The notes under the pieces are model-generated. The model saw nothing but the letters and a program-made list of their open reading frames with translations. It did no database searches and was not told where the DNA came from. Made by a program: the position numbers and the translations under genes. From sequence record NC_110934.1: 64,000 bases of DNA; one strand, 5' to 3'. The stretch is from Klebsiella phage KPP2018. Below, one piece after another: positions 3,013 through 18,309 of the stretch. How positions within the stretch are numbered: the stretch's first letter is position 1; every line of letters starts with the position of its first letter.

Positions 3013-3015
3013 TAA

Positions 3016-4008: not shown

Positions 4009-4045
4009 AGCTGCTCCTAAATTTAGCTATCTCTAGCTATTTTAA

Positions 4046-4294: not shown

Positions 4295-4295
4295 A

Positions 4296-4502: not shown

Positions 4503-4795
4503 TATAGCAACTCATCTAAGCAAGAGGTATATTTAAGTTTACCATCTTTATCTACTTTGATTTCGACTTCCGCTCGTGGTACTTGACGAACTACACCATG
4601 AATCATCTTATAGCGAATGCCTTTAGCTGGTTCACGATCTTTTGGAAATACTTGCTTAACCGTTACTACCTTGAAACCCTCACGCGGTGTTAACACTACT
4701 ACTTGATCACCTTCTTTGATCTTCCAAGAGCTAGGAAATTCATAGGTATAGCGTTGACCACCAGTTTGGAACACAACAGAAAGATAACGTTTCAT
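4502..4795 (-). CDS. Hypothetical protein, 97 aa
   Basis: ORF; promoter at 4803..4873. Confidence 0.55.
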   Translation of the reverse strand: MKRYLSVVFQTGGQRYTYEFPSSWKIKEGDQVVVLTPREGFKVVTVKQVFPKDREPAKGIRYKMIHGVVRQVPRAEVEIKVDKDGKLKYTSCLDELL

Positions 4796-4802
4796 TTGGT
4801 TT

Positions 4803-4873
4803 CCCTCTCATTAATTTATATAAATATTATAACAATAAATAAGAGAGAAAGCAAATGAATTTTTAATAAAGTT
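4803..4873 (-). promoter_or_regulatory. T5-type early promoter (-10 at 4826..4831, -35 at 4849..4854)
   Basis: Motif family. Confidence 0.7.
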
Positions 4874-5057
4874 TAGTCACTTCATAAACTATACTACGAG
4901 ATTCTTTATTACGTTGTATTAAATTAGCATATGCTTCTTCAGCTTCATTTTTAGTATTAAAGTCTATAACGTGAGAGGTATTAGCTCTGTTTGATTGGCT
5001 ATACCAGATAACTACTAGGAGTTTAAACATACTAATCCTTAAATTGGTGCTGGGCAC
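4863..5057 (-). CDS. Hypothetical small protein, 64 aa
   Basis: ORF. Confidence 0.4.
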   Translation of the reverse strand: MPSTNLRISMFKLLVVIWYSQSNRANTSHVIDFNTKNEAEEAYANLIQRNKESRSIVYEVTKLY

Positions 5058-5131
5058 AGGATTCGAACCTGCAACGGGATTACTCCTCCTGATTACAAAT
5101 CAGGTGCATTCAACCATTCTGCCAACCCAGC
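5045..5131 (-). tRNA. Atypical 87-nt type-II-shaped tRNA (15-nt extra arm) with anticodon TGT (Thr) as read
   Basis: Acceptor GCTGGGT/GCCCAGC, A73, CCA encoded; anticodon loop TTTGTAA; extra arm AGGAGTAATCCCGTT. Confidence 0.6.
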
Positions 5132-5296
5132 AGAACCCGTTATTTCAACGGGATTTCTTTTTCAATAACAGGGGACTTGTCAGTCATGACTGTCATTGCC
5201 ATTTGTTGTAGAAATTCAAAGGTGAAGGCTACACGTTCTTCACCAATCTCTACTTCTACACGTTTCTTTTGTTTATCGATCTTGACTTTCAGATTA

Positions 5297-5518
5297 TCAG
5301 CCATCTTCGGGTTCTCGTTGCTGCGCTACTTCTAGCCAGTCTGGTAGAAGAAACTTTGTACGAAATTCTTCGTAAGTTTCTTTGGGATAAAAGCTAAAAC
5401 CTCCTTTCTCGTCATTCAGGATAACAGAGCCGTCAGTTTGTTCGTATGCTCGGTATGTTTCTCCAATAACAATAACTCGTTTATCGGTACTTTTATTACG
5501 AAATTCAAAAACGTGCAT
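5297..5518 (-). CDS. Hypothetical protein, 73 aa
   Basis: ORF. Confidence 0.5.
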   Translation of the reverse strand: MHVFEFRNKSTDKRVIVIGETYRAYEQTDGSVILNDEKGGFSFYPKETYEEFRTKFLLPDWLEVAQQREPEDG

Positions 5519-5534
5519 AACGTTTCCTTAAAGT

Positions 5535-5610
5535 TGGAGCGGCTAGAGGGAATCGAACCCTACTCAGCGAGGCTTGGAAGGCCTGCGACACAACCCGTGT
5601 GCTTAACCGC
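5535..5610 (-). tRNA. tRNA-Gly (TCC)
   Basis: Hand fold; loop CTTCCAA; short D-arm. Confidence 0.7.
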
Positions 5611-5618
5611 TTATTGTT

Positions 5619-5694
5619 TGGCTGGAGAAGGAGGAATCGAACCTACCATTAACGGAGTCAAAGGCCGTTGTGCTAACCGTTACACTACTCTCCA
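5619..5694 (-). tRNA. tRNA-Gln (TTG)
   Basis: U1:A72; loop CTTTGAC. Confidence 0.7.
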
Positions 5695-5700
5695 ATTATT

Positions 5701-5776
5701 TGGCTGGAGTGCCTGGGATCGAACCAGGAACCTTCGGAGTCAGAGGCCGACGATCTGCCAATTGATCTACACTCCA
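5701..5776 (-). tRNA. tRNA-Gln (CTG)
   Basis: U1:A72; loop CTCTGAC. Confidence 0.7.
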
Positions 5777-5784
5777 ATAACCCT

Positions 5785-5985
5785 TTACTCTACAGGAACC
5801 GTGGCGATTGGTTCTGGATCTTCTAAACGTTTGCCTTCATGATCTACTCGAATAACTCCGCATCCTTCGCAAATCACAACAGCACCGTAGCCTTCTTTAA
5901 CTTCAGCTTCTGTAATCAAACCAGAAAGATCACCAGTATCTCTGCCCCACATATCAATGGAGCATTGTTTGCAGAAATCAGCCAT
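5785..5985 (-). CDS. Zinc-ribbon small protein, 66 aa (two CxxC pairs)
   Basis: ORF. Confidence 0.5.
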   Translation of the reverse strand: MADFCKQCSIDMWGRDTGDLSGLITEAEVKEGYGAVVICEGCGVIRVDHEGKRLEDPEPIATVPVE

Positions 5986-6010
5986 ATTTTATTTCCTATT
6001 TAAGTTAATT

Positions 6011-6087
6011 TGGGGTGGCTAGTGGAATTCGAATCCACATAGGCCTGATTCACAATCAGGATCATTAACCAATTATGATATAGCCAC
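6011..6087 (-). tRNA. tRNA-His (GTG)
   Basis: Loop TTGTGAA; CCA encoded. Confidence 0.7.
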
Positions 6088-6300
6088 AATTGAAAACTCG
6101 CAGGGTTAGCGAAACCTTCCTCAATTAGCATGTTCTAGAATACTAATCAAGTTATCTCCTATTGCACGCAGCTCAAGACGAGTACGAATTTTCAATTGTG
6201 GCGGCTCTCCGAAACTCTTCTACTCTAGCCTTAGCAGCTTACTCCCGAACGCATGTCGGGAAAGTCTTACTAAGAGCATCAAATAGCACCGTTACACTTT
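6088..6300 (-). ncRNA. Candidate structured RNA: about 120-nt region closed by a 14-bp stem (ccacaattgaaaa...ttttcaattgtgg) next to tRNA-His
   Basis: Long perfect inverted repeat; no ORF; lies in a transcribed tRNA block. Confidence 0.3.
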
Positions 6301-6321
6301 GAGCCATAGATATATCAAGAA

Positions 6322-6440
6322 GCAGAAGGACTTGAACCTTCACGAGATAGACCATTTATCTCAGCCGCTTTATGAGGTATGTTGCAAGGAGTGGATGTTC
6401 CTTATAAACCTTTTAGGCAGCCCCGTCTACCGATTCCGGC
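6322..6440 (-). other. tRNA-like element with a perfect T-arm (GAAGG TTCAAGT CCTTC) but no acceptor pairing I could find
   Basis: T-arm motif at 6331..6347; the remaining cloverleaf could not be closed by hand. Confidence 0.3.
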
Positions 6441-6471
6441 ATACTTCAAGAATTTTTATAAACCAGCAGAA

Positions 6472-6645
6472 GCCTCATTTAAAGCATCAACAATAGCCTC
6501 ACGTTGGGTCATTCCATACCCGGTGGAATCTAGGTGTGGCAAATAAGCCTTCCATCCCTTATCTGTTTCATGAAGACATGCTTTAAATTTTGTACCATCC
6601 TTCATTGTTACAGTAACTGTTTTGCTCATAAGATTTCCTTATAGT
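6472..6645 (-). CDS. Small protein of about 57 aa (MSKTVTVTMKDGTKFKACLHETDKGW...)
   Basis: Hand-translated; shorter than the ORF-track cutoff. Confidence 0.35.
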
Positions 6646-6649
6646 TAAT

Positions 6650-6739
6650 TGGCAGAAGATAATGGAGTCGAACCATCACCGTATCGCTACAGCGGGCTGG
6701 TTTTCAAGACCAGTTACGTACCACTACGTCCTATCTTCT
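6650..6739 (-). tRNA. tRNA-Ser (TGA), type II
   Basis: Loop CTTGAAA; long extra arm; G73; CCA encoded. Confidence 0.75.
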
Positions 6740-6745
6740 ATTGTT

Positions 6746-6836
6746 TGGCGGAAGAGGAGAGATTTGAACTCTCAAGCCGTTTTACCAGTCAGCCACTTTC
6801 CAAGCGGTTTTCGTCGCCAATTCGATTTGCTCTTCC
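6746..6836 (-). tRNA. tRNA-Ser (GGA), type II
   Basis: Loop TTGGAAA; long extra arm; G73. Confidence 0.65.
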
Positions 6837-6860
6837 AATAATAAGATGATGCCTCTATCA

Positions 6861-6905
6861 CACCAGGCAGTTACGCCTCGCTGGGATTCGAACCCATTAA
6901 AACAG
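6861..6905 (-). other. Orphan T-arm or tRNA 3' fragment (TGGG TTCGAAT CCCA) with no matching 5' half
   Basis: T-loop motif only. Confidence 0.3.
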
Positions 6906-6948
6906 CTCAACCAAGATAGTAGGTTTAATTTACTCTGACCATCAAATT

Positions 6949-7025
6949 TGGTGCGTGACAAGGGATTCGAACCCTCAAAACCCGACTTCTAAGGACGGTA
7001 TGTATGCCAATTCCATCAATCACGC
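6949..7025 (-). tRNA. Atypical type-I tRNA with Leu anticodon TAG, A73 and a 5-nt variable loop
   Basis: Loop CTTAGAA; a T:T mismatch in the anticodon stem; CCA encoded. Confidence 0.55.
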
Positions 7026-7030
7026 ATGTT

Positions 7031-7109
7031 TGGTGGAGAATAACGGAATCGAACCGTTCTGATGTCCTCGGTGCAAGCGAGGTGTCCACTCCATGCAGAC
7101 CCATTCCCC
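7031..7109 (-). tRNA. tRNA-Ala (TGC) with a G3:U70 wobble
   Basis: Loop CTTGCAC; G3:T70 is the Ala identity pair. Confidence 0.75.
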
Positions 7110-7320
7110 AAATTCTTTAGTTTACTAAGGCTATTAGCTCGGCGTAACTACAGCACCTTCGCTTCAAGCGGAAGGAACCGCGTCATCTCGCAAACCCGAT
7201 ACACTATTCAGTTGCCGCTGAATCTAGTGGACTAATCTAGAACTTCTCCCGAATCGTAGGGATCGTGCTTTTTGGCAGCCAGTCCTAGGTCGAGCTAATA
7301 CCTTAGTGAACTATGATGAG
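7110..7320 (-). ncRNA. Candidate small RNA: about 210 nt, no ORF, hairpins, downstream of a T5-type promoter and upstream of the tRNAs
   Basis: Inverted repeats ccttcgc/gcggaagg and ctagtggactaatctag. Confidence 0.3.
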
Positions 7321-7326
7321 GATTTC

Positions 7327-7398
7327 TCCTCATCAATTTATATAAATATTATAACAAGAAATTAAGCATCAAGCAAGTACATTTTTAGCGATTTCTTG
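7327..7398 (-). promoter_or_regulatory. T5-type early promoter firing into the ncRNA/tRNA block
   Basis: Motif family. Confidence 0.7.
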
Positions 7399-7737
7399 TA
7401 GTTCCTTTACATCACGAACGTAAAGGTAATCAGAGCTTCCAGAGTGCATACTTTGCATAACCACACCTTCATCTGGTGCATTATCCTTCAGAGTAATTCC
7501 TAACCAGAACTCGGCAAAACTAGGTGTTATCTCACCTTGACTTGCCTTGAATACATCATATTCTGTAAGTTCTTGACCAGTAGATAATCCCAAATATACA
7601 GAACTAAGATCAATCTCTTTATGAGACTCATAAAACTCCGATAGATCCTTTTCCATATCCCAGCCATGCTGTAGCGCGAACTCCATTGTCACATGACCGA
7701 AATAACCTTGAATCTTGCTTGATAATTGCATTTGCAA
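7369..7737 (-). CDS. Hypothetical protein, 122 aa
   Basis: ORF. Confidence 0.6.
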   Translation of the reverse strand: MQMQLSSKIQGYFGHVTMEFALQHGWDMEKDLSEFYESHKEIDLSSVYLGLSTGQELTEYDVFKASQGEITPSFAEFWLGITLKDNAPDEGVVMQSMHSGSSDYLYVRDVKELQEIAKNVLA

Positions 7738-7756
7738 TTCCTTATTTTGAGTTAAT

Positions 7757-7830
7757 TGGTACTCGGTGATAGAATCGAACTATCGCAACCGCCGTGTAAA
7801 GACGGGGTTCTCCCATTAAACTAACCGAGC
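7757..7830 (-). tRNA. tRNA-Val (TAC)
   Basis: Loop TTTACAC. Confidence 0.7.
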
Positions 7831-7834
7831 AATT

Positions 7835-7913
7835 TGGTAGATCGCCTGGGACTCGAACCCAGAACCTTCCGATTAAAAGTCGGATGCTACTAAACCTATT
7901 GAGCTAGCGATCT
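7835..7913 (-). tRNA. tRNA-Lys (TTT)
   Basis: Loop CTTTTAA. Confidence 0.7.
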
Positions 7914-7916
7914 ATT

Positions 7917-8084
7917 AGTAACCATTGTATACTTCTTTAATAGAGTGAACCTTCAAGTAAGGGTGATTAGTATTAAACTCTGACATTACTTCATCCCAAT
8001 TTTTACCATAATGGGCAAGTAAGGATTTTGATGTATTCTTACCTGAACGTTTGTCGCTTACTACTAATCGAAATACTTTCATTT
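7917..8084 (-). CDS. Small protein of about 55 aa (MKVFRLVVSDKRSGK...)
   Basis: Hand-translated. Confidence 0.35.
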
Positions 8085-8102
8085 CGAAATCCCCTATTAA
8101 AA

Positions 8103-8180
8103 TGGAAGCGGGTGCAGGAATCGAACCTACCTCTTTCTAGCTTATGAGACTAGTGATCTCTACCAGAGATCTAACCCGCA
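8103..8180 (-). tRNA. tRNA-Met/Ile2 (CAT) with a 1:72 mismatch
   Basis: Loop CTCATAA. Confidence 0.65.
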
Positions 8181-8186
8181 ATTGTT

Positions 8187-8262
8187 TGGTCAGTGCGGCA
8201 GGACTCGAACCTGCGACCCGAAGCATCCAAGGCTCCCACGCTACCAACTGCGCTACGCACTG
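8187..8262 (-). tRNA. tRNA-Pro (TGG) with C1:G72
   Basis: Loop CTTGGAT. Confidence 0.75.
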
Positions 8263-8303
8263 TTAATTCTTTTATTGTGGAGGAATATTAATAATTCGTC
8301 CGT

Positions 8304-8471
8304 CTACACAATAAACGGTACTAGGAATTGTACTATATATATGTAGAAATTCTTTATATTACTCTCCCCGCCACAGAAATTTTTAGCAAATTCATACTCT
8401 TTATTAATGGTTGAGTCAAATTTAAAACAACCAGTAAGTAGGAATACAGATAGTAATAAAATTTTCTTCAT
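8304..8471 (-). CDS. Small lipoprotein, 55 aa (lipobox LLTGC)
   Basis: Hand-translated MKKILLLSVFLLTGCFKF...; promoter at 8478..8552. Confidence 0.45.
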   Translation of the reverse strand: MKKILLLSVFLLTGCFKFDSTINKEYEFAKNFCGGESNIKNFYIYIVQFLVPFIV

Positions 8472-8477
8472 TTAGCT

Positions 8478-8552
8478 TTCCTTCTCTTCACTTTATAAAA
8501 TATATTATACAGATAATTAAGCAGAATAGCAAATGAATTTTTAATAAATTTA
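8478..8552 (-). promoter_or_regulatory. T5-type early promoter
   Basis: Motif family. Confidence 0.7.
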
Positions 8553-8559
8553 CTTATTG

Positions 8560-8683
8560 TGTAGGCCACCTGGAGGCTACCAACCCCACGGCTGACAAAG
8601 AAGTTTGCGAGACCTCTCTTAAATGCCAGAATAGATCCGCCGATCTATCGGAACCTACATAATAAGTAAACTTTATAGTGTCA
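8560..8683 (-). ncRNA. Unassigned non-coding stretch with hairpins inside the tRNA block
   Basis: No ORF and no tRNA fold found. Confidence 0.2.
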
Positions 8684-8804
8684 TTCTAGACAGGACTCGA
8701 ACCTGTTATCACTTGTGCGGACTTACGAGAACCATTCTTTCACTCGAATCGAACGAGCTTCTGCCCTCGCCAAGCTGGTTTCCCCGTCAACCACGCTAGA
8801 ATGT
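8684..8804 (-). other. 120-nt tRNA-like element: acceptor-like closing stem ATTCTAG/CTAGAAT enclosing two T-arm hairpins; no CCA
   Basis: Two T-arm motifs (GCTCG TTCGATT CGAGT and ACAGG TTCGAGT CCTGT). Confidence 0.4.
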
Positions 8805-8924
8805 TTAATTGTTTTCAGTGCAAGAGTCCGAGTCTTGGACACGACCGCTTCGCAAGTACATAGGCAGCTTATCATGAATCAGCACTTCCGAATTGCTAGC
8901 TCCGTGTTCTGCACTGAAATTTTA

Positions 8925-9272
8925 TTAGTTTAACCGTAAAGTATTATCTACTTCACCATTAATTGTTCGGCATTCTTCTGGGATTGCCGGGGTGGCCTTG
9001 TATTCCCACCATTCAGAACCGTCATATTCACCACGTTCTAACCAAGTTCCATCAGTAAACCATACGTTACCATAAAGCAATTGTCCACCGAAACCAGAAT
9101 CATATTTAAAGTCTAGATTATTTAGAAAATCTTCAATATCTTTTTCTGTATAACCTACGGGTAATACCCAAACTTCTTTGTCCCCATAATAACCGAATTC
9201 TATCTTAATACACTTAACTTCAGACTTAGTATTCTTTAGGGCAAGTAACAACTCTTCTTTAGCATTAATCAT
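8925..9272 (-). CDS. Hypothetical protein, 115 aa
   Basis: ORF. Confidence 0.6.
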   Translation of the reverse strand: MINAKEELLLALKNTKSEVKCIKIEFGYYGDKEVWVLPVGYTEKDIEDFLNNLDFKYDSGFGGQLLYGNVWFTDGTWLERGEYDGSEWWEYKATPAIPEECRTINGEVDNTLRLN

Positions 9273-9298
9273 AACATATTTCTCGTGCTAGTTTAATT

Positions 9299-9375
9299 TG
9301 GCGCGACCGATGGGATTCGAACCCACATTCTCTCCAGTGACAGGGGAGTACCATTACCAAGCCAGCCCCGGTCGC
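9299..9375 (-). tRNA. tRNA-Asp (GTC); copy 1 carries a C31:U39 mismatch (9336 a), whereas copy 2 has a paired G
   Basis: Loop CTGTCAC; G73; the one SNP found between the copies. Confidence 0.75.
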
Positions 9376-9384
9376 ATAATTCAT

Positions 9385-9570
9385 TTACTCAGCTTTGAGT
9401 TTTTCAATAGCTGCATTAAGTTCCTTAAGAAACTCTTTTCGTACATTAAGACGATTAAGACTTACTAGTATATCATGTTTAAGTTCTTCGATATATTTCT
9501 TCTCAACTTCAATATTGTTGATAGTGCTATCACGATGAACTTCTAGCTGCGCAATTACATTCTTGGACAT
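9385..9570 (-). CDS. Coiled-coil small protein, 61 aa
   Basis: ORF. Confidence 0.45.
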   Translation of the reverse strand: MSKNVIAQLEVHRDSTINNIEVEKKYIEELKHDILVSLNRLNVRKEFLKELNAAIEKLKAE

Positions 9571-9672
9571 GCTTGTTTCCTCAGTTATTAATAAAAATGG
9601 TATCTGTGGCTGAATTCGATATCAGCAATGATAGCTGGTTGGCTACCGGTTTACTTAACTCTACACAGAATT

Positions 9673-9755
9673 TGGCGGGCCGTGTAGGATTCGAACCTAC
9701 GTTGTCTTTCGACATGGATTAACAGTCCACCGCCAAACCGCTTGGCTAACGACCC
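9673..9755 (-). tRNA. tRNA-Asn (GTT) with an unusual 13-nt extra arm
   Basis: Loop CTGTTAA; extra arm GTCGAAAGACAAC. Confidence 0.65.
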
Positions 9756-9907
9756 TAAATTTATATTGCTGACTAGGATTTTCACCTAGACGGAGTTAGC
9801 ACCGTAGCGTGTAGCGGCATACCCCTCCAAACCGTGCCTCATCTTTCAATTACGGAGACAGTGTTCCTACGCGTGCCTGAATTGATTTAACAATTCTTTC
9901 AGCAAAT
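9756..9907 (-). ncRNA. Unassigned structured non-coding stretch between tRNA-Asn and tRNA-Cys
   Basis: Hairpins; no ORF. Confidence 0.2.
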
Positions 9908-9983
9908 TGGACGACCGCATGAGATTTGAACTCACATAAGAAGGATTTGCAATCCTTCTCCTAAGCCATTCAGCCAACGGTCG
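9908..9983 (-). tRNA. tRNA-Cys (GCA), U73
   Basis: Loop TTGCAAA. Confidence 0.75.
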
Positions 9984-10007
9984 ATTTATCTTGTTCTGTC
10001 ATGTTGC

Positions 10008-10075
10008 TCCCCCAGTTCAATTTATGTAATTATTATACAGAACTTTTGGAAACTAAGCAACTACATTTTTTAAGA
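10008..10075 (-). promoter_or_regulatory. T5-type early promoter firing into the tRNA block
   Basis: Motif family. Confidence 0.65.
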
Positions 10076-10340
10076 ATTTGATGCCTTTCTTTCTCTTCTT
10101 ATATTTCCACGTTAATGGATTCTGTCGATTATGAACACTTGAGATCTTTGTCTCATCAAAGTTCTTCAATATCATGTAATCACAAGATAGTTGTTCTAAT
10201 GGAATGTGATCACCGTCAAAAGCGTGTACATAAGGTTGTTGACTAGCACGATAATGATAGACTTTGTTAATTCTACGTTTCAGCGACTTATCCGCGCAGT
10301 AAATAAAGAAGTTTTCAGGATGCATCAGCAGCTCCTTCAA
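10053..10340 (-). CDS. Hypothetical protein, 95 aa
   Basis: ORF. Confidence 0.55.
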   Translation of the reverse strand: MKELLMHPENFFIYCADKSLKRRINKVYHYRASQQPYVHAFDGDHIPLEQLSCDYMILKNFDETKISSVHNRQNPLTWKYKKRKKGIKFLKNVVA

Positions 10341-10417
10341 TTTGGTGCACCCTGTTCGTATCGAACGAACCTCTCAAGCTCTTCAGGCAAGCGCTAATCC
10401 ATCTCAGCTAAAGGTGC
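10341..10417 (-). tRNA. tRNA-Phe (GAA)? The anticodon stem is weak
   Basis: Loop CTGAAGA; two T:T mismatches in the stem. Confidence 0.45.
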
Positions 10418-10424
10418 AAATTTT

Positions 10425-10495
10425 GGCAGGGGTAAAGGTATTCGAAACCTTTTCATGGGTTTTGGAGGCCCATTTGCAACCTATGCGTACCCCAA
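10425..10495 (-). tRNA. tRNA-Trp (CCA), compact 71 nt with a reduced D-arm
   Basis: Loop CUCCAAA, as in E. coli tRNA-Trp. Confidence 0.55.
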
Positions 10496-10504
10496 TTATT
10501 AATT

Positions 10505-10578
10505 GGCACACCCAACGAGGATCGAACTCGTGTTCCCACTGTGAAAGAGTGGTGTCCTAACCGCTAGACGATAGGTGC
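10505..10578 (-). tRNA. tRNA-Glu (TTC)
   Basis: Loop CTTTCAC. Confidence 0.7.
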
Positions 10579-10585
10579 ATTAAAT

Positions 10586-10673
10586 TGGTGGGGAAAGATG
10601 GAGTCGAACCACCCGAGTCGCAATGACAACTGATTTACAGTCAGCTCTGCTACCACTTACAGAATATTTCCCC
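10586..10673 (-). tRNA. tRNA-Tyr (GTA), type II
   Basis: Loop CUGUAAA; A73. Confidence 0.75.
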
Positions 10674-10803
10674 ATATTTAGAAGTATTCAAAAATTCTCA
10701 TTTAAACACTTTTAAATATGTTTCCAAATTAGATAAATATTATATCAAGTTTTATAGTATTGGGCAAGTCAAATTTTAAAGAACTTGCCCAATGCTGTAT
10801 TAG

Positions 10804-11079
10804 TTAGTCGAACTTAGGAGTGACAGTTAAGGAGAACGGAAGTTCAAAAACTTCTTCGCCCTCATCACTAATAGTGATTACACGACCTTTAAGTTCAGAC
10901 ATTGAAATATCAATATCAGCTTTTGCATCTGGAGCCATGCCAGCTTCAATACATTTAGCTTTAATTTCCGGCAGAAGTTCTACATCGTAGAAATAAAGCC
11001 ATTCAATCTCACCTTCCCAGCCTTCCCAGGATTTACAGATTGCACTTTCAATACCAGCAGCTATAACACGATTTTGCAT
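10804..11079 (-). CDS. Acidic hypothetical protein, 91 aa
   Basis: ORF; promoter at 11088..11162. Confidence 0.6.
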   Translation of the reverse strand: MQNRVIAAGIESAICKSWEGWEGEIEWLYFYDVELLPEIKAKCIEAGMAPDAKADIDISMSELKGRVITISDEGEEVFELPFSLTVTPKFD

Positions 11080-11087
11080 TCGTTAAC

Positions 11088-11162
11088 TCCTTCATCAATT
11101 TATATAACTATTATATCAGAAATTTAAAGCAAAAGGCAAGTACATTTTTAAAAATTCTGTTT
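11088..11162 (-). promoter_or_regulatory. T5-type early promoter
   Basis: Motif family. Confidence 0.7.
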
Positions 11163-11169
11163 GGAGGAG

Positions 11170-11376
11170 CTAAACTCCAGATTCTTCAGCCAAGTCTAGA
11201 CTAATAAGAGATATAGCCATAATTGCTGCTCCGTGCTCTTTTTCTCCAGTCTCTTTAGCTAGAGTTATAATATCAAGAAATTGCTTATGAAAATCTGCAA
11301 CCTCTTGAGTTATACCTGCCTCAGCAATCATGCCTTTAAGCATGAAGCGTTGTGCGGTAATTTCAGGATTAGCCAT
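11170..11376 (-). CDS. Hypothetical protein, 68 aa
   Basis: ORF. Confidence 0.5.
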   Translation of the reverse strand: MANPEITAQRFMLKGMIAEAGITQEVADFHKQFLDIITLAKETGEKEHGAAIMAISLISLDLAEESGV

Positions 11377-11551
11377 GTTGTTTCTCCAGTTTCATCTTTA
11401 ATAGTCTACAAATAAAATCAATGTCTTCATCCGTGCCTAGATCTCTATCTTCAAGGGTTGCCTTGAAGTTTTTAGTCAATTCCATGAGAATAACTTCTCT
11501 AGAACGACGTGTTGGCGGAGGTGGATGTCTATACATCTTATTTCCTTAATT

Positions 11552-11628
11552 TGGTAGGGGTGGTGGGATTCGAACCCACAAAACCTGAATTTTAAGTCCA
11601 GTACCTATGCCAATTCGATTACACCCCC
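11552..11628 (-). tRNA. Atypical type-I tRNA with Leu anticodon TAA, A73 and a 5-nt variable loop
   Basis: Loop CTTAAAA. Confidence 0.55.
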
Positions 11629-11635
11629 ATGTAGT

Positions 11636-11824
11636 TTAGTCAATTACTTTTGAGGCTTCAAGGTAGTCGATATAGTGTACGTTTTCTACCGTAATCATAT
11701 AATCCGCCACTTTATCCATAGCTTGGGCTTCAGAGGTAGCTCTGGCTAACCTATATCCTTTTCTATACTCATCCGGGTATTCTCTATCTTGAATAAACAC
11801 AACATAAACTATATATAGATCCAT
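11636..11824 (-). CDS. Hypothetical protein, 62 aa
   Basis: ORF. Confidence 0.45.
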   Translation of the reverse strand: MDLYIVYVVFIQDREYPDEYRKGYRLARATSEAQAMDKVADYMITVENVHYIDYLEASKVID

Positions 11825-11843
11825 TTGTGACCTCTATTTAATT

Positions 11844-11921
11844 TGGTGGCTCCCCGAGGATTCGAACCTACGTACCTTCCGGTTATGAGCCGGGTGCTCA
11901 TACCATATGAGCTTGAGAACC
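11844..11921 (-). tRNA. tRNA-Met/Ile2 (CAT); the third CAT tRNA
   Basis: Loop CTCATAA. Confidence 0.6.
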
Positions 11922-11927
11922 AAAATC

Positions 11928-12016
11928 TGGCGGAAGAAGTGGGAATCGAACCCACAAGGCTATATTTCAAACCGACAGATTAGCAATCTGCTGCAATACC
12001 ATTATGCTATTCTTCC
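11928..12016 (-). tRNA. tRNA-Ser (GCT), type II
   Basis: Loop TTGCTAA; G73. Confidence 0.75.
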
Positions 12017-12037
12017 GAATTTATAAGATATATTATA

Positions 12038-12607
12038 TTAGAAATTTAGCTTCATAGCAAGAAAATTTTTCAAGTTTTCGGTAGACATCTCATCCACATC
12101 TACAGGAGAAACAAATCCATTTAATTGTCTAGCAAACTTTTCACCAGCAGGATCATTGTCCCCAACAGCTACCAATTTAAAAGGTAGTAATTTCAGTTGC
12201 TTTAATAACGCTTTTCCTGGAGAAGAACCCAACATTGCCAGGGCTGGATAACCCGCATTATGTAATGCAACTGCCTTAAATACAGATTCAGCAATCAATA
12301 CTACTTTTTCATCCCCATTGAGAGTTTCTAGTCCCCATACACACTGTGTAGTAGAATAAGTAAAGTATTTAGCTTCAAAGGGGCACTTACCATGACCTTT
12401 TGGAGCAGAAGGATTATAAGTTTGATAGCCCCTCAACATTCCAGAGAAATCATACAACGGGACTGTTAGCCACCCTTCCGGACTTAACCAGCAATGATAT
12501 TTATCTGTATCAAATCCTCTAGATAAGAGGTGCTGTGTTAGCTCATCAACATTCATATTTGGTTCCTCTCTCAAATTTATAGATATATTATACAGAGAAT
12601 TTAGCAT
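12038..12607 (-). CDS. TOPRIM-domain protein (small primase-like), 189 aa
   Basis: VVLIAES...VAVGDNDPAG resembles the Toprim E and DxD motifs. Confidence 0.55.
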   Translation of the reverse strand: MLNSLYNISINLREEPNMNVDELTQHLLSRGFDTDKYHCWLSPEGWLTVPLYDFSGMLRGYQTYNPSAPKGHGKCPFEAKYFTYSTTQCVWGLETLNGDEKVVLIAESVFKAVALHNAGYPALAMLGSSPGKALLKQLKLLPFKLVAVGDNDPAGEKFARQLNGFVSPVDVDEMSTENLKNFLAMKLNF

Positions 12608-12625
12608 TCAAGCAATCAAATTTTT
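12548..12625 (-). promoter_or_regulatory. T5-type early promoter
   Basis: Motif family. Confidence 0.7.
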
Positions 12626-12731
12626 TAACTTTTTAGAGGAAAATCATAGGGCACTTAAGGGTAGCAGATAAGTGGTGAGGACCAAAATTTGTGACCCCAC
12701 TAAAAATCCAGGGGCAATTTTTAAAGACCCC

Positions 12732-12760
12732 TTGACATTTTCGCTGGGGTAGTGTAAAGT
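12732..12760 (+). promoter_or_regulatory. Sigma70 promoter (TTGACA, 17-nt spacer, TG-TAAAGT) for the plus-strand low-complexity operon; copy at 42196..42224
   Basis: Read directly. Confidence 0.6.
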
Positions 12761-12822
12761 ATATGTTATGGATGAGTGATCAAAGAGACACACATTTTCT
12801 ATATACTAGGAGGTGTCAAAAA

Positions 12823-13593
12823 ATGACAGAAGAAGTAGCTAAGAGTCCTGAGACCGTCGCTAGCGTTGCAGCAGAACTGCACCGTCACGAGGAATCAGAT
12901 AAGAAAAAGTGGGAGAAGGTCAGAGCCTACGAAGAGAAACATCGTGAACACGATGAAGATGATGAAGAAGATGACGATGATGAGTATTGTCATAAATATG
13001 GAAAACGTAAAATGCAAGAACCAGTAAACGTATTCACTAGTGGCTTCCCTGGCCTAATGGGTGGTTACCCAGCAAACGCAGGTGCTTTCGGTGGTGAAGG
13101 TATGGGACTATTCGGAGCTATCCTAATCGGTGCTCTATTAACAGGCGGATTCGGTGGTTTTGGTGGATTTGGTGGACGTGGTGTAGTTGGTGAAGGTACC
13201 GCAGTTGATGCAGTACTTCAGAACCAAGATACCGCTAGTATTCTAGCAGCTATTAACACTACTCGTACAGAAGCTAACCAGGGTACTGGAGCTGTTTTAA
13301 GCGCAGTTAACAATGGTTTTAGCCAGACATCCCAAAACCAGAGCCGTGATACTCAGTCTGTACTAACTACGATCTATGGTACGGGTGCTAATCTGTCTAA
13401 TCAAATCTGCCAGGAAACTCGCAACGTTATTCAGGGTCAGTTCGATCTTTCTCGCCAGATTGATCAATCTTTCGCAGCTAACCAGATAGCTCGTGCACAA
13501 GATAAGTTTGATTCTGCACAGATCGCTTTCCAGCAGACTTTACAAACTAATAACCAGTTTGCCGCTGTTCAGGCTCAGATGTGTGCTAACCAG
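12823..13593 (+). pseudogene. 5' 257 codons of the Gly-rich/acidic protein gene (intact copy 42287..43279), cut off by the repeat junction
   Basis: Identical to copy 2 up to 13593, then reads into unrelated sequence. Confidence 0.85.
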
Positions 13594-13699
13594 TTATGAT
13601 AATGATCAAATCGATCAGCAAACGGCGGGCTTTTTGCTGGACACGCTGAAAGCGGAACACTGCACTAAAAAGCAAGCGGCAAAAATTATTTTAATGTAA
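13594..13699 (+). pseudogene. C-terminal fragment (...DNDQIDQQTAGFLLDTLKAEHCTKKQAAKIILM) of a gene whose 5' part is missing
   Basis: In-frame coding-like sequence that starts exactly at the junction. Confidence 0.5.
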
Positions 13700-14983: not shown

Positions 14984-15013
14984 AATTCTCAAATGAGAAT
15001 GATTCTCATTTGA
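14984..15013. repeat. Perfect 23-bp palindrome caaatgagaatgattctcatttg
   Basis: Read directly; the same core recurs in iteron family 1. Confidence 0.8.
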
Positions 15014-15233
15014 CCGCGCCCGCGATGGTTAGCCTGCTAATGGTTAGGGTGTTACGTGTCGCCTTGTGTGATCGTTAGCGTGCTAACTAATTTTCAAGCC
15101 TCCTTCAATTTTGCCCTTGTTTTAGTATCCCCAACAAAATTAAACGCGTTAGAATGCGTTTGAGAGCGTTTTAACGCTATATTAGAATTATTCACTGCGT
15201 AGGAATACTGTATATTTATACAGTAGGATAAGC

Positions 15234-15242
15234 TGTGGATAA
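15234..15242 (-). promoter_or_regulatory. DnaA box (TTATCCACA on the minus strand)
   Basis: Plus strand reads tgtggataa, the exact consensus. Confidence 0.7.
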
Positions 15243-15245
15243 GTC

Positions 15246-15254
15246 TGTTGATAA
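15246..15254 (-). promoter_or_regulatory. DnaA-like box (TTATCAACA, 1 mismatch)
   Basis: Plus strand reads tgttgataa. Confidence 0.5.
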
Positions 15255-15306
15255 CGCTTCAAAACGGCTAGAATTTTGTCAAGTCAAATCGTGCTGTTAG
15301 TAAGTC

Positions 15307-15315
15307 TGTGGATAA
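15307..15315 (-). promoter_or_regulatory. DnaA box (TTATCCACA)
   Basis: tgtggataa; the flanks repeat the first box (aagtctgtKgataac). Confidence 0.7.
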
Positions 15316-15392
15316 CTTAAATAACAGTGTTTCTCACTTCCGTTCTTAAATGAGAATCATTATCATTTGCATTTCACTATCTAACTAATAAT

Positions 15393-15525
15393 CATTCCGC
15401 TTTTTAAATGAGAATCATTCCGCTTTTTAAATGAGATTGATTCTCATTCCGCTTTTTAAATGCGAATTATTATCATTCTCATTCCGCTTTTTAAATGAGA
15501 ATGATTCTTATTATCATTCGTATTT
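15393..15525. repeat. Iteron family 1: 4 direct copies of cattccgctttttaaatgagaat(N)att at 15393, 15416, 15445 and 15480, each with a palindromic aaatgagaat/attctcattt core
   Basis: Read directly. Confidence 0.85.
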
Positions 15526-15551
15526 AGCGCAGGGCAATTGCCCTGCGCTTT

Positions 15552-16153
15552 TGTGCAAATCCGACATTGCTCCACGGGTGTTACGTGCGGGCGTGTATGT
15601 GCGAATCCGACAATCTTTGGTAGTGTGCAAATCCGACCCGAAAAATTTTTATAGTGTGCAAATCCGACAATGAATTTTCCCAAAAACTCCAGCAATCTCG
15701 AACTGCGTTCGAATCCTGTGGGGTATGTGCAAATTCGACACGGTTTTTCTAGGATTAAGATGTGCAAATCCGACAAGATTTTTGTGACTTCGATTGGAGG
15801 GTGTGTGATTGTGTGGGTTTGGGGAGAAGATGAGAGAGCGAGAGAAAATAAGGGAAGAAACTGGAGGAGCAGCATGGGTGGCGTGTAACGCCTGATTTGC
15901 TGCGTTTTTGGGGAAGAGTTGAGAAGATTTGGGTTAATTGGGCTTGGGGCGAGATAAAGTAAAATTTTATTAGCAAAATGGGGCAAAATAGCTTGACAAG
16001 TGAAAATTCCTGTGGCTCTAAAAACTCAGGCAATCATGGGCCTTCGGCCCGAAATAATGCTGCTATTTTCAGGAGATTATATGTGCCTAAAAACTTAGGC
16101 ATTTGTGCAAATCCGACCATAAATTTCTAGAAACACAATGTGCAAATCCGACA
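15552..16153. repeat. Iteron family 2: 8 copies of TGTGCAAATCCGACA (0-1 mismatches) at 15552, 15598, 15624, 15655, 15726, 15761, 16104 and 16139
   Basis: Read directly. Confidence 0.85.
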
Positions 16154-16584
16154 GTAATTTCTGGAAATGTGTTTTCAAAAAATGTCTCCTAGAAATAACC
16201 GCCCTCCCTATAACCGCCCTGTATTAAACCGCCTAGTATATGTTCCTAGAAACTTAGGAGAACCGCCCACTAGAAGCGTGATATCTCGTGGGTATTTCGT
16301 GAGAACTCTGGAGTTTCTAGGAAAGTGTATGTGATCCTAGAGATGGGGAGCGGCAACAGGTGTATCATCTTGAACACAGATATTGCCTTTAAATATATTC
16401 GTATGTTTTAAAAGTAAATGATCCCCCATTTCATGTGAGATTCCTCGTGGGGCGCGTGAGTATTACGGAAGAACTCTAATATTGGCCCGCGCTAAGACTA
16501 GCCGCTATAGCACAGACGCAAATAGAGTTGTAATAATCATCGCCCCTAGAGTTCACAATAAGAGTTATTGTTAATCTATGAGAT

Positions 16585-16614
16585 TATTATAACATACATT
16601 TTTAATAACGTCAA
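16585..16614 (-). promoter_or_regulatory. Sigma70 promoter on the minus strand (TTGACG, 18 nt, TATAAT) firing leftward into the GC-rich block
   Basis: Read directly; overlaps the stop of CDS 16611..17366. Confidence 0.55.
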
Positions 16615-17366
16615 GAAGATTTTGCTAACGTTTTTGGATTCTTCCTGGCTTTGAGATATATCCCTTTAGATGCTAGGTAAATATATGTTGCTAGGAATGA
16701 AGATTCTGATCCCGATTCCTCATAGGTTAACGTACCTCTAGGGTATTTATTTGTTTTAGGAGCATAGTTAAGCACAGCCGCAGTTAATGATCCTAATCCT
16801 AGAACATCCGCAAGACGTCTAAAGGTATTCTCTTCATCATGAATAGCATAAAGAATGTTATCTTCAATATCCGTTAATGGAATCTTACGGATATGAGATA
16901 CTGCAATCCGTGCTATCATAGCTCCAATTGTTTTATTAATATCCTCGAAAGAAACACTCTCCATATATTTTAGAGGGGGAAGATGGTCATATTTACATTT
17001 CTTAGGCGGAATAAGAAGTTGTTCAGGGTAAGCCTCTAGTGCCTGACGAACGTTTGCTTCTGGATATGTTGGCAAAGGTTCATCTATAATAACATGTAAA
17101 AAGTTAGCTCTATGCCCTTTAGCAGTTGGATCTAAAGACTTGAGTACTTTATTCATATCCACATATGAATATGCTAGGTCTGCTTGAGGAGCATTAATAT
17201 CAAACTTAATCTTCTTGCCCTCCCATTTAGCAGGGAACATCTCACAAACAAACATTACTGCATGTTTGACGTCTGGCTCTAGCTCTGATAGACATTTGTG
17301 ATCTGCTGTTACTGCTAAAGCGAGTATATTCTTAAATTTATTAGCTTCTTCAATCATATATCCCAT
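16611..17366 (-). CDS. Hypothetical protein, 251 aa
   Basis: ORF. Confidence 0.7.
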   Translation of the reverse strand: MGYMIEEANKFKNILALAVTADHKCLSELEPDVKHAVMFVCEMFPAKWEGKKIKFDINAPQADLAYSYVDMNKVLKSLDPTAKGHRANFLHVIIDEPLPTYPEANVRQALEAYPEQLLIPPKKCKYDHLPPLKYMESVSFEDINKTIGAMIARIAVSHIRKIPLTDIEDNILYAIHDEENTFRRLADVLGLGSLTAAVLNYAPKTNKYPRGTLTYEESGSESSFLATYIYLASKGIYLKARKNPKTLAKSS

Positions 17367-17695
17367 GCCTGCTGACTAGTATCACTAACTTGTGTCTTTT
17401 TCTCTCTTCGTGGTTTAAAAGTTCCTGTAGTATTACTTTTACTAGGTTCTAATTTATACCACAGCATTCCTAGCTGGTTAACCATATGAGCAACATTTCT
17501 AGGGGTCAATGGAGGTAGGGATTCACAGTTTGATATCTCTATTAATATATTAAATAATTCTGTCTCTTTAGCCTTACTGTTTACTACCACCACGTATTCT
17601 AATGTCTCTACCTCAGAATCCTCGTCTTTATAGTAAAGGCTAAGAGTAATTAAATTTTCCCCAGCAGGAGTTATTTTTGTTTTACCAAATATCAT
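17354..17695 (-). CDS. Hypothetical protein, 113 aa
   Basis: ORF. Confidence 0.6.
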   Translation of the reverse strand: MIFGKTKITPAGENLITLSLYYKDEDSEVETLEYVVVVNSKAKETELFNILIEISNCESLPPLTPRNVAHMVNQLGMLWYKLEPSKSNTTGTFKPRREKKTQVSDTSQQAWDI

Positions 17696-18309
17696 TAATT
17701 ACCTCTCTTATCTTCATTAAGCGCAGCTCCCAACGCCTCCATAATAGCATCTTCTAAACTTCCATGTTTACTAGGATCATTAAAATGAATAGCATAAACA
17801 GAACTCCTAGAAACTCCAGCATCCGCAGGTGCTACGCTTCGCATATCAGATTCAAAAGCTTCTTGAGTATGCTTTAACTGTACAGAAGGGCCGTAATCTT
17901 CACCAAACTTGTATGACTGCGTACTACTTATCACACCCCCACAAGGAACATTGTGCATATCCGACATTAATCTTTTATCGGAGTTATTCAGCATTGCGAT
18001 TGGCCCTGACTGCCACGGATCTCGAATAGTTACTGGAGTACTGGGGCGGTTCACTTCAGCCTTCACAAGTTTGTACCCTGCATCGATTAATGCGTTAATT
18101 AGATTATCAGCTGGGATGCGAGCCTTGCCAAAAATCTTACGAGCATCTTCGAGCTTATCCTCAAGATCTTTACATGCTCTAAGGTCAGTGTGTGCAAATG
18201 TTAGCTTCATAGATTTAAATTGTACAGTAGCAGTTAAATCTTTAAAGCTATAATCCCATGTGTTCAGTTCATGATCCGGTACTACTTGAATAGGTTGTTG
18301 TGCAAACAT
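17695..18309 (-). CDS. Hypothetical protein, 204 aa
   Basis: ORF. Confidence 0.7.
   Translation of the reverse strand: MFAQQPIQVVPDHELNTWDYSFKDLTATVQFKSMKLTFAHTDLRACKDLEDKLEDARKIFGKARIPADNLINALIDAGYKLVKAEVNRPSTPVTIRDPWQSGPIAMLNNSDKRLMSDMHNVPCGGVISSTQSYKFGEDYGPSVQLKHTQEAFESDMRSVAPADAGVSRSSVYAIHFNDPSKHGSLEDAIMEALGAALNEDKRGN

What the first reader, a model, noticed from the sequence alone, without database searches (positions are those of the whole stretch)
15552..16153. Iteron family 2: eight copies of TGTGCAAATCCGACA at irregular spacing
The 15-mer recurs eight times with 0-1 mismatches at 15552, 15598, 15624, 15655, 15726, 15761, 16104 and 16139, all in the same orientation, with 26-71 nt spacing and a 330-nt gap. 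The spacing is irregular and there is no leader or repeat-spacer structure, so this is not a CRISPR array. It looks like an incompatibility, centromere or initiator-binding array. The (aaccgcc)x4 run and the cctagaaacttagg palindromes at 16200-16260 add further candidate sites.
Basis: seen in the sequence. Interest (0 to 1): 0.6.

Follow-up and report, generated by a model that had tools for sequence, protein, structure and literature searches.

The report
T5 phage terminal-repeat boundary repeats
The repeated 15-mer is real, but it is the already catalogued "direct repeat D" of T5-like phages, a conserved array of likely protein-binding sites that straddles the right end of the phage's long terminal repeat next to the DNA-injection stop region, and it is not a plasmid iteron or centromere.

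Summary
TGTGCAAATCCGACA occurs eight times at the stated coordinates, all on the + strand, and a ninth time at 17952; chance predicts 0.1.

The window is a T5-like phage (Demerecviridae). The array is orthologous to "direct repeat D" (DRD copies 1-8 and 10) annotated in the T5 GenBank record. It lies in the untranslated "Repeat Region 3", which holds the injection stop signal. It is absent from plasmids, from 5,426 E. coli genomes and from host genomes in general.

New here:
- The terminal-repeat right end (about 16018|16019) falls in the 330-nt gap: six copies inside, two or three outside.
- This split layout and the core GTGC-RR-AT-Y-C-K-A persist across genera infecting Klebsiella, Pectobacterium and Vibrio.
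- Orientation is never mixed, and spacing is held to within 1 nt despite a compensated 10-nt shift of copy 5.

The function is unknown in the literature. My ranking:
- Recognition sites for a phage protein acting at the repeat boundary, a terminase pac-like site: about 0.38.
- Second-step DNA transfer through A2: about 0.25.
- Initiator iterons of a DnaA-assisted origin: about 0.2.

The element is already known, so interest is modest.

The parts
15552..15566 (+). DRD copy 1 (TGTGCAAATCCGACA). It starts 4 nt right of the nick-1 consensus and sits inside the nick site's spacer.
15598..15612 (+). DRD copy 2 (TGTGCGAATCCGACA)
15624..15638 (+). DRD copy 3 (TGTGCAAATCCGACC)
15655..15669 (+). DRD copy 4
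15726..15740 (+). DRD copy 5 (TGTGCAAATTCGACA), in the '71/35' position; T5 has it 10 nt further right ('81/25')
15761..15775 (+). DRD copy 6, the last copy inside the terminal repeat
16104..16118 (+). DRD copy 7, the first copy outside the terminal repeat (86 nt beyond its end)
16139..16153 (+). DRD copy 8
17952..17966 (+). Ninth copy (TGTGCATATCCGACA), orthologous to T5 DRD copy 10. It lies inside the minus-strand ORF 17695-18309, the homologue of T5 ORF019.
15526..15549 (+). Palindrome AGCGCAGGGCAATTGCCCTGCGCT (T5 palindrome J). It carries CCCTGCGC (15541-15548), the equivalent of T5's major nick 1 at 7.9%. The partner element GTTACGTG is at 15580-15587.
15980..16018 (+). Conserved block GGGGCAAAATAGCTTGACAAGTGAAAA...CTGTGGCTC, ending at the inferred right end of the long terminal repeat (16018|16019)
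   Evidence: the annotated repeat ends of T5, MM-1 and My1 fall 19-21 nt after the conserved TTGACAA; one search shows the same block in PG07
16197..16267 (+). AACCGCC(C) repeats at 16197, 16212, 16227 and 16261. They are conserved right of the repeat end in T5 and My1. The same motif lies about 36 nt inside the left genome terminus.
15334..15520 (+).
15206..15315 (+). LexA-like box TACTGTATATTTATACAGTA (15206-15225) followed by paired DnaA and DnaA-like boxes: TGTGGATAA 15234-15242, TGTTGATAA 15246-15254, TGTTAGTAA 15295-15303, TGTGGATAA 15307-15315. This equals T5 IRD'-spacer-IRC', the candidate injection stop signal.

Best explanation
Identity (shown, about 0.97 sure): the copies are the 'direct repeat D' (DRD) family of T5-like phages. 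They lie in the roughly 1.2-kb untranslated Repeat Region 3 at the right end of the long terminal repeat, the region that contains the injection stop signal. Six copies lie inside the repeat, starting 4 nt right of the 7.9% nick consensus. The repeat ends at about 16018|16019, in the 330-nt gap. Two copies follow just outside, and one more lies 1.8 kb on, inside the ORF019 homologue.

Function (inferred): the copies are binding sites for a phage-encoded sequence-specific DNA-binding protein. That protein builds a fixed-geometry complex on both sides of the repeat's right boundary. The most likely job is to mark that boundary for the terminase, as a pac-like site. T5's left end enters the cell first, so it should be packaged last, which makes the right repeat end the place where packaging should start. 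The small terminase subunit (SciB in T5) would bind the left cluster on the packaged side and the right cluster beyond the cut. This would present the conserved TTGACAA...TGAAAA block between them to the nuclease.

The array is not a plasmid iteron, incompatibility or partition array.
For: Identity:
- The region is 97% identical to Salmonella phage Th1, and there are hundreds of Demerecviridae hits.
- T5 GenBank AY587007 annotates the same 15-mer as direct repeat D copies 1-10, with spacing 46/26/31/81/25/344/35.
- Davison's preprint lists nine DRD repeats in Repeat Region 3.

Functional site:
- The core GTGC-RR-AT-Y-C-K-A is kept in Sugarlandvirus, Myunavirus and Pogseptimavirus, although the flanks share little or no nucleotide identity.
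- 181 distinct copies in 45 loci are all in one orientation, and the flanks carry no information.
- Spacing is held: copy 1 to 6 is 209 +/- 1 nt, and copy 4 to 6 is 106 +/- 1 nt despite a compensated 10-nt shift of copy 5.

Boundary link:
- The annotated repeat ends of T5, MM-1 and My1 all fall 19-21 nt after a conserved TTGACAA block, between the left and right clusters. PG07 has the same layout.
- The left repeat boundary has no such array.
- Apart from one T5-specific pair inside D13, the motif occurs nowhere else in the T5 sequence scanned, in PG07, or in the parts of My1 that were fetched.

Precedent and candidate binder:
- SPP1's small terminase binds pacL and pacR, which flank the cut site pacC.
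- The gene upstream of T5's large terminase, sciB, is in the PHROG 'terminase small subunit' family.

Not a host or plasmid element.
Against: - No experiment links DRD to any protein, and the literature leaves its function open.
- The split layout could simply be inherited as part of a conserved block, without the cut site depending on it.
- The array spans about 600 nt here and about 740 nt in T5, which is large for a pac site.
- The lone copy 1.8 kb away in ORF019 and T5's pair inside D13 have no role in a packaging model.
- SciB diverges at the average rate between phages with the same and with changed motifs (ratio 1.31, median about 1.37). That gives it no special support.
- The packaging direction is inferred from the last-in, first-out rule, not measured for T5.
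- The AACCGCC motif, which is present near both termini, may be the real terminase signal.
Confidence: 0.38

Rival explanations
1. Second-step transfer sites. The copies are binding sites for the pre-early DNA-binding protein A2 (with A1). As the first bases beyond the injection stop reach the cytoplasm, A2 binds successive sites. It acts as a ratchet or handle that restarts DNA entry.
For: - Copy 1 starts 4 nt right of the 7.9% nick consensus, at about the estimated shear point of first-step DNA (T5 9618 against DRD1 at 9672).
- All sites point in the direction of DNA entry, and their density falls in that direction: 6, then 2-3, then 1.
- A2 is an essential DNA-binding dimer required for second-step transfer, with no known target or mechanism.
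- A2 and the array are both conserved across the family.
Against: - At the pause the sites would still be outside the cytoplasm.
- The model gives no reason for the repeat boundary to sit between the clusters in every genus examined.
- A2's divergence pattern is average (ratio 1.38).
- Early work, as cited, described A2 only as a DNA-binding dimer, without sequence specificity.
Confidence: 0.25
2. Initiator iterons. Repeat Region 3 is a replication origin with DnaA boxes, an AT-rich unwinding region (the DRC repeats) and DRD iterons. The iterons would be bound by the phage initiator helicase D2 (the 'origin binding protein'). The origin might be used to re-copy the terminal repeat in concatemers.
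For: - The order of elements is that of classical iteron origins.
- Perfect DnaA boxes are kept even in the Vibrio phage.
- T5 D2 is a UL9-like helicase with a predicted HTH, was proposed as an initiator, and has no known site.
- D2 is the protein best conserved where the motif is unchanged (79% T5-My1) and the most diverged where it changed (33% T5-PG07; ratio 2.4 against a median of about 1.37).
- UL9 Box I, CGTTCGCACT, shares GTGCGAA in reverse complement with DRD variants.
- T5 has a DRD pair inside the replication gene cluster.
Against: - The co-variation rests on one lineage, and intermediate arrays show that the motif drifts rather than switches.
- The D13 pair is absent from My1 and PG07.
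- D2's similarity to UL9 is confined to the helicase motifs.
- Electron-microscopy studies placed T5 origins near the middle of the genome, as cited.
- There is no adjacent conserved initiator gene.
Confidence: 0.2
3. Host-factor sites. The 15-mers bind a host protein (weak DnaA boxes, or CRP-like TGTGc-N6-gACA) that helps hold the DNA at the membrane during the pause.
For: - The first 9 nt (the reverse complement is ATTTGCACA) match the DnaA box consensus TTWTNCACA at 8 of 9 positions. The 15-mer also loosely fits TGTGA-N6-TCACA (from the sequence; the consensus is quoted).
- Davison proposes DnaA-mediated anchoring of this region.
Against: - My1 (AGTGC...) and PG07 (GAGTGCGGATTCTA) break the DnaA and CRP fit. 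The true DnaA boxes nearby stay perfect in the same phages.
- The strongly conserved part is the centre, AATCCGA, which neither protein reads.
Confidence: 0.05
4. Plasmid-type incompatibility or partition (centromere) array.
For: Only the general look of an irregular direct-repeat array.
Against: - No plasmid match.
- The virulent phage context is collinear with T5.
- There are no Rep, ParA or ParB genes nearby.
- The array sits at a terminal-repeat boundary.
Confidence: 0.02

Closest known systems
[quoted passage not shown]
   Same: The 15-mer, orientation and order of copies are identical, and the spacing is the same (46/26/31, then 106 across copies 4-6, about 343, 35). The neighbours also match: the palindrome J nick site on the left, the repeat end in the gap, AACCGCC repeats on the right, and the copy in ORF019.
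   Different: This window lacks T5's copy 9; the segment after 16230 is replaced. Copy 5 sits 10 nt further left. The gene to the right (a 251-aa ORF) is unrelated to T5 ORF018.
SPP1 pac site (pacL - pacC - pacR)
   Same: Two clusters of small-terminase binding sites flank the cleavage site. That matches the left cluster, conserved cut block, right cluster layout seen here.
   Different: SPP1 is a headful packager with a pac site of about 270 bp (size from memory). T5 makes exact 10-kb terminal repeats, and the array spans 600-740 nt. No binding has been shown for T5.
P1 pac and lambda cosB (from established knowledge, not tested here)
   Same: P1 pac has short hexamer repeats, four on one side and three on the other side of the cut. 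Lambda cosB has three gpNu1-binding R sites on the packaged side of the nick site. Both are arrays of short terminase-recognition repeats beside a cut.
   Different: The motifs and sizes differ. P1's elements work through Dam methylation, and lambda's R sites are not all in one orientation.
T7 SRL/SRR short-repeat arrays next to the terminal repeat (recalled from Dunn and Studier 1983; a lead only)
   Same: Irregularly spaced short direct repeats flank a direct terminal repeat, and their function is unresolved.
   Different: The T7 unit is a heptamer, the arrays lie on both sides of a 160-bp repeat, and the phage family is unrelated.
Iteron origins of theta plasmids (pSC101, P1 oriR, F oriS, RK2 oriV)
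   Same: The order is DnaA boxes, then an AT-rich region, then same-orientation direct repeats of about 15-22 nt.
   Different: There is no adjacent rep gene, no plasmid homology, irregular non-phased spacing, and a lytic phage context at a terminal-repeat boundary.

Membership tests
T5-type direct repeat D (DRD) array of Demerecviridae Repeat Region 3 | Consensus TGTGCAAATCCGACA in multiple copies on one strand | tested here: met
   the same 15-mer as T5's annotated copies; 181 distinct copies in 45 loci, never in mixed orientation.
T5-type direct repeat D (DRD) array of Demerecviridae Repeat Region 3 | Copy order and spacing orthologous to T5 (46/26/31, 106 across copies 4-6, about 343, 35, plus a distal copy in ORF019) | tested here: met
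T5-type direct repeat D (DRD) array of Demerecviridae Repeat Region 3 | Lies in the untranslated region between the pre-early and early genes, right of the DnaA-box inverted repeats, the DRC repeats and the 7.9% nick site | tested here: met
   the region is 83% identical to the T5 region in a multiple alignment.
T5-type direct repeat D (DRD) array of Demerecviridae Repeat Region 3 | Straddles the right end of the long terminal repeat | tested here: inconclusive
   The end is inferred at 16018|16019 from homology to the annotated ends of T5, MM-1 and My1. The physical ends of this genome cannot be read from the window.
Terminase recognition (pac/cos-type) site | Repeated sites adjacent to or flanking the terminase cut | tested here: met
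   the clusters flank the annotated repeat end in T5, MM-1 and My1, and PG07 has the same layout.
Terminase recognition (pac/cos-type) site | Bound by the small terminase subunit and required for packaging | not testable with these tools
   This needs binding and packaging assays. SciB is only assigned to a TerS family by PHROGs.
Plasmid iteron replicon / incompatibility determinant | Cognate Rep initiator gene adjacent to the array; homology to known replicons | tested here: not met
   No plasmid match. Flanking ORFs have no Rep domains and are not conserved between phages.
Partition centromere (parS/parC-type) | Array next to a parA/parB-type operon | tested here: not met
   No such genes among the neighbouring ORFs tested. 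The T5 region collinear with the window carries no gene annotated as ParA/ParB.
CRISPR array | Regular repeat-spacer units of constant period | tested here: not met
   Irregular spacing of 26-343 nt. The same 'spacers' are conserved in related phages.
Host REP/BIME-like dispersed element | Many copies in host chromosomes | tested here: not met
   No match in 5,426 E. coli genomes. Only 17 two-copy hits occur in 185,579 species, none in Enterobacterales or Vibrio, and the only homologous one is a phage fragment.
DnaA box cluster | Match to TTWTNCACA retained across relatives | tested here: not met
   8 of 9 positions match in T5-type copies, but the match is broken in My1 and PG07, while genuine DnaA boxes nearby stay perfect.

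The most novel reading that the evidence does not exclude
Three elements together would form the long-sought cis-acting maturation site of the T5 family: the DRD clusters, the conserved TTGACAA...TGAAAA block at the repeat end, and the AACCGCC repeats (which also lie about 36 nt inside the left terminus). At this site a phage protein (SciB/TerS, or the D2 initiator) would define and regenerate the 10-kb terminal repeat. The window's odd tandem 29,464-bp unit contains this region, and four units make about 117.9 kb, roughly one capsid-full. It could then be a defective, amplicon-like genome that kept only the needed cis sites, rather than an assembly error.
Probability: 0.25. Interest if true: 0.6.

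Novelty: already known. Interest (0 to 1): 0.3.

Why it matters
The element is already catalogued, so the finding adds no new kind of system. It does sit in the stretch of T5 DNA tied to two old unsolved problems. One is how injection stops after 8% of the genome and then restarts. The other is how exact 10-kb terminal repeats are cut and regenerated.

Three results turn a descriptive 'repeat-rich region' into a short list of testable protein-DNA interactions (SciB, A2/D3, D2):
- The array always straddles the repeat's right end.
- It keeps a fixed geometry.
- A 12-nt core persists from coliphages to Vibrio phages.

The result also warns annotators that origin-like repeat arrays in phage contigs need not be plasmid replicons.

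Tried and rejected
- Plasmid homology: none.
- Host element: none in E. coli or in representative bacterial genomes.
- Known RNA family: nothing above threshold.
- Promoter or terminator role: no consensus sites within the array.
- Adjacent conserved Rep-like gene: the neighbours are unknown proteins and differ even between T5 and this window.
- Footprinting among close relatives: uninformative, because the spacers are conserved too.
- Co-variation of candidate binders with the Vibrio-phage motif variant: D2 stands out and SciB and A2 do not. But this is a single lineage, and intermediate arrays show drift rather than a switch, so I treat it as weak.
- T5's internal DRD pair in D13 as a second conserved site: absent in My1 and PG07.
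- Annotated repeat_regions in phages atrejo and vaffelhjerte as extra evidence on termini: they are small internal repeats.
- Solved structures for A2 and SciB: none. D2 matches herpesvirus origin-binding proteins only in the helicase motifs.
- Papers I could not read: Davison 2015 and Bourguignon 1976 are not held.
- My first motif logo was contaminated by chance coding repeats, so I redid it.

Full report
**Observation.** A search for TGTGCAAATCCGACA with up to two mismatches finds the eight reported copies at 15552, 15598, 15624, 15655, 15726, 15761, 16104 and 16139. All are on the + strand with 0 or 1 mismatch. There is also a ninth copy at 17952. Shuffled sequence gives 0.10 matches on average, and none of 100 shuffles reached nine. 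Spacings are 46, 26, 31, 71, 35, 343 and 35 nt. The AACCGCC run (16197, 16212, 16227, 16261) and the cctagaaacttagg palindrome are also present.

**What the sequence is.** The region has no match among 72,556 plasmids. It matches 455 phage records, nearly all T5-like (Demerecviridae), with Salmonella phage Th1 best at 97%. The window carries the T5-type tRNA cluster and, from 13594 onward, is collinear with T5 from about 7 kb to 59 kb.

The T5 GenBank record AY587007 annotates 'direct repeat D' copies 1-10 at 9672, 9718, 9744, 9775, 9856, 9881, 10225, 10260, 10397 and 12073. The sequence is the same 15-mer, and the spacing matches the window. So the window's copies are orthologues of DRD 1-8, and the copy at 17952 is DRD 10, inside the homologue of T5 ORF019 (73% amino-acid identity). 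T5's copy 9 is missing here.

Davison's preprint calls this stretch Repeat Region 3 of the left terminal repeat. He lists 'nine DRD repeats' among its elements and places the injection stop signal there, and he assigns no function to DRD.

**Anatomy around the array.**
- To the left lie a LexA-like box (15206-15225), two pairs of DnaA and DnaA-like boxes (15234-15315), and the AT-rich DRC repeats (15334-15520).
- Next comes a palindrome carrying CCCTGCGC (15541-15548). This is the equivalent of T5's major nick at 7.9%, 4 nt before DRD copy 1.
- T5's four major nick sites share CCC(T)GCGC followed about 30 nt later by (G/A)TTACGYG. At nick 1 the first DRD copy occupies that spacer.
- The annotated terminal-repeat ends of T5 (10139), phage MM-1 and Pectobacterium phage My1 all fall 19-21 nt after a conserved TTGACAA(G/A)TGAAAA block. 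This places the window's repeat end at 16018|16019.
- So six copies are inside the repeat (243-467 nt from its end), and copies 7 and 8 are 86-135 nt outside it.
- The flanks are transcribed convergently, and the region has no convincing ORFs, promoters or RNA family matches.

**Conservation.** Among close relatives the whole region is conserved, so footprinting there is uninformative. Distant relatives are decisive.
- Klebsiella Sugarlandvirus has the identical 15-mer.
- Pectobacterium phage My1 (another subfamily) has six copies of (A/T)GTGCAAATCCGA(C/T) inside its 12.85-kb repeat and three beyond its end. Little other nucleotide identity remains, but the order of elements is the same.
- Vibrio phage PG07 keeps the LexA-like box, perfect DnaA boxes, DRC-like repeats and the GGCAAAA...CTTGACAA block, with a left cluster and a right cluster. 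Its repeat is GAGTGCGGATTCTA, and this variant is confined to that region of its genome.
- Two further contigs mix ...TCCGA...TTCGA and ...TTCTA copies. The family core is therefore GTGC-RR-AT-Y-C-K-A, with a few drifting positions.
- Across 45 T5-like loci, 181 distinct copies are always in one orientation, and the flanks carry almost no information apart from a T-rich patch 6-8 nt downstream.
- In 23 distinct arrays the geometry is held. Copy 1 to 6 is 209 +/- 1 nt, and copy 6 to 7 is 342-344 nt. Copy 4 to 6 is 106 +/- 1 nt even though copy 5 sits in two alternative positions 10 nt apart, which is a compensated shift of one helical turn.

**Distribution.** In T5 the core occurs only at DRD 1-10 (copies 1-6 lie within the terminal repeat, which the record annotates as identical at the right end) and as a tandem in-frame pair inside gene D13. 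My1 and PG07 lack that pair. There is no array at the left repeat boundary.

The array is absent from 5,426 complete E. coli genomes. A scan of 185,579 species' genomes for two adjacent cores gave 17 hits. None is in Enterobacterales or Vibrio. Only one is homologous, and it is a 2.6-kb T5-like fragment binned into a MAG.

**Mechanism.** What is shown is that this is a conserved, oriented, geometry-constrained array specific to this phage family, split by the right end of the terminal repeat. What follows is inference.

I favour a boundary-marking role for the terminase (about 0.38).
- T5's left end is injected first, so by the last-in, first-out rule it should be packaged last. Packaging should then begin with a cut at the right repeat end.
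- Elaborate recognition sites are expected at an initiation cut and are absent from the left boundary.
- Clusters of small-terminase sites flanking the cut are the architecture of SPP1 pac and, from established knowledge, of P1 pac.
- The gene upstream of T5's large terminase, sciB, belongs to a PHROG small-terminase family.

Against this, nothing experimental links SciB to DRD, the array is long for a pac site, and the distal copies are unexplained. The AACCGCC motif lies about 36 nt inside the left terminus in T5, My1 and PG07 and just right of the right boundary in T5 and My1. It may be the true shared terminus signal.

**Rivals.**
1. Second-step transfer (about 0.25). The array begins exactly where first-step DNA ends and points in the direction of entry. 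A2 is an essential DNA-binding protein with no known target. The sites would not yet be in the cytoplasm at the pause, however, and the model does not explain the split at the repeat end.
2. Origin iterons (about 0.2). The order of DnaA boxes, AT-rich repeats and direct repeats is canonical. T5's UL9-like D2 helicase is a proposed initiator without a known site. D2 shows the strongest contrast between T5-My1 (79%) and T5-PG07 (33%) of 25 proteins compared. UL9's Box I shares GTGCGAA with DRD variants. But this rests on one lineage, the motif drifts rather than switches, and D2 resembles UL9 only in the helicase motifs. No initiator gene is adjacent, and older mapping, as cited, placed origins mid-genome.
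3. Host DnaA or CRP binding (about 0.05). This fails because the fit breaks in My1 and PG07 while the genuine DnaA boxes persist.
4. Plasmid incompatibility or partition (about 0.02). This is excluded by the context.

**Verdict.** The feature is real and functional-looking, and it is already known and annotated in the type phage. The plasmid-style interpretation is wrong in context, although 'array of binding sites for a specific protein' is right. The function remains open. The comparative results here narrow it to a few testable protein-DNA pairs.

Noticed in passing
window 1-13593 and 29465-43057; junction at 13593|13594: A 13,593-bp segment (tRNA cluster, primase fragment) is duplicated at 99.99% identity with a period of 29,464 bp. 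The junction truncates an ORF (12763-13599) and joins mid-genome sequence to the inner part of the terminal repeat. None of 278 matching phage records spans it. Four units total about 117.9 kb, roughly one T5 capsid-full. It is either an assembly chimera or a private rearrangement or defective genome.
   Followed up: partly
window 15206-15225 (promoter-like site at 15160-15188): A near-perfect LexA-type box, TACTGTATATTTATACAGTA, sits just downstream of a promoter-like TTGAGA-17-TAGAAT. It is conserved in T5, My1 and the Vibrio phage PG07, which hints at an SOS-controlled rightward transcript into the repeat region.
   Followed up: partly
window 14989-15013 and 15334-15520: The DRC repeats (AATGAGAATCATTATCATT and similar) resemble Fur boxes (GATAATGATAATCATTATC, recalled from memory). 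T5 uses the Fur-regulated receptor FhuA. This segment also gave weak hits to unrelated 149-kb coliphages.
   Followed up: no
window 15541-15587 and about 15017-15065; T5 nick sites: T5's four major nick sites share a bipartite signature: CCC(T)GCGC, then about 30 nt, then (G/A)TTACGYG. The window has the nick-1 equivalent and a second site of this type (GACCGCGCCC...GGTGTTACGTG), which is also present in PG07.
   Followed up: partly
window 16197-16267; T5 positions 36 and 10318-10354; My1 position 36; PG07 about 103085: The (A/T)ACCGCC motif lies about 36 nt inside the left genome terminus in three genera, preceded by AAGTCT. It is repeated just right of the right repeat boundary in T5, My1 and this window. 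It is a candidate shared terminus signal.
   Followed up: partly
window 16086-16099, 16245-16258, 16301-16324: The CCTAGAAAC/CTGGAG motifs resemble the spacers of T5 nick sites 2 and 3 (TCTCCTAGAAACTCTGGAG). They may mark minor nick sites.
   Followed up: no
T5 AY587007 79019-79048 (L128 29019-29048): A tandem in-frame DRD pair inside the D13 (SbcC-like) gene encodes VQILQ-VQIRQ, 370 nt right of major nick 4. It is absent from My1 and PG07, so it is lineage-specific and unexplained.
   Followed up: yes
T5 A2 (3726-4133) and D3/ORF104 (64245-64655): The pre-early protein A2 and the early protein D3 fall in the same PHROG DNA-binding family (phrog_1725), so they are probably paralogues.
   Followed up: no
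L227 (SABI01000336.1, 'Spirochaetia bacterium' MAG): A 2.6-kb contig 86-90% identical to window 16104-18307 sits in a Spirochaetia MAG. It is evidently T5-like phage DNA mis-binned into that genome.
   Followed up: partly
window 15655-15775 compared with T5 9775-9895: DRD copy 5 occupies two alternative positions 10 nt apart in different phages, while the distance from copy 4 to copy 6 stays at 106 nt. This is a compensated indel of one helical turn.
   Followed up: yes
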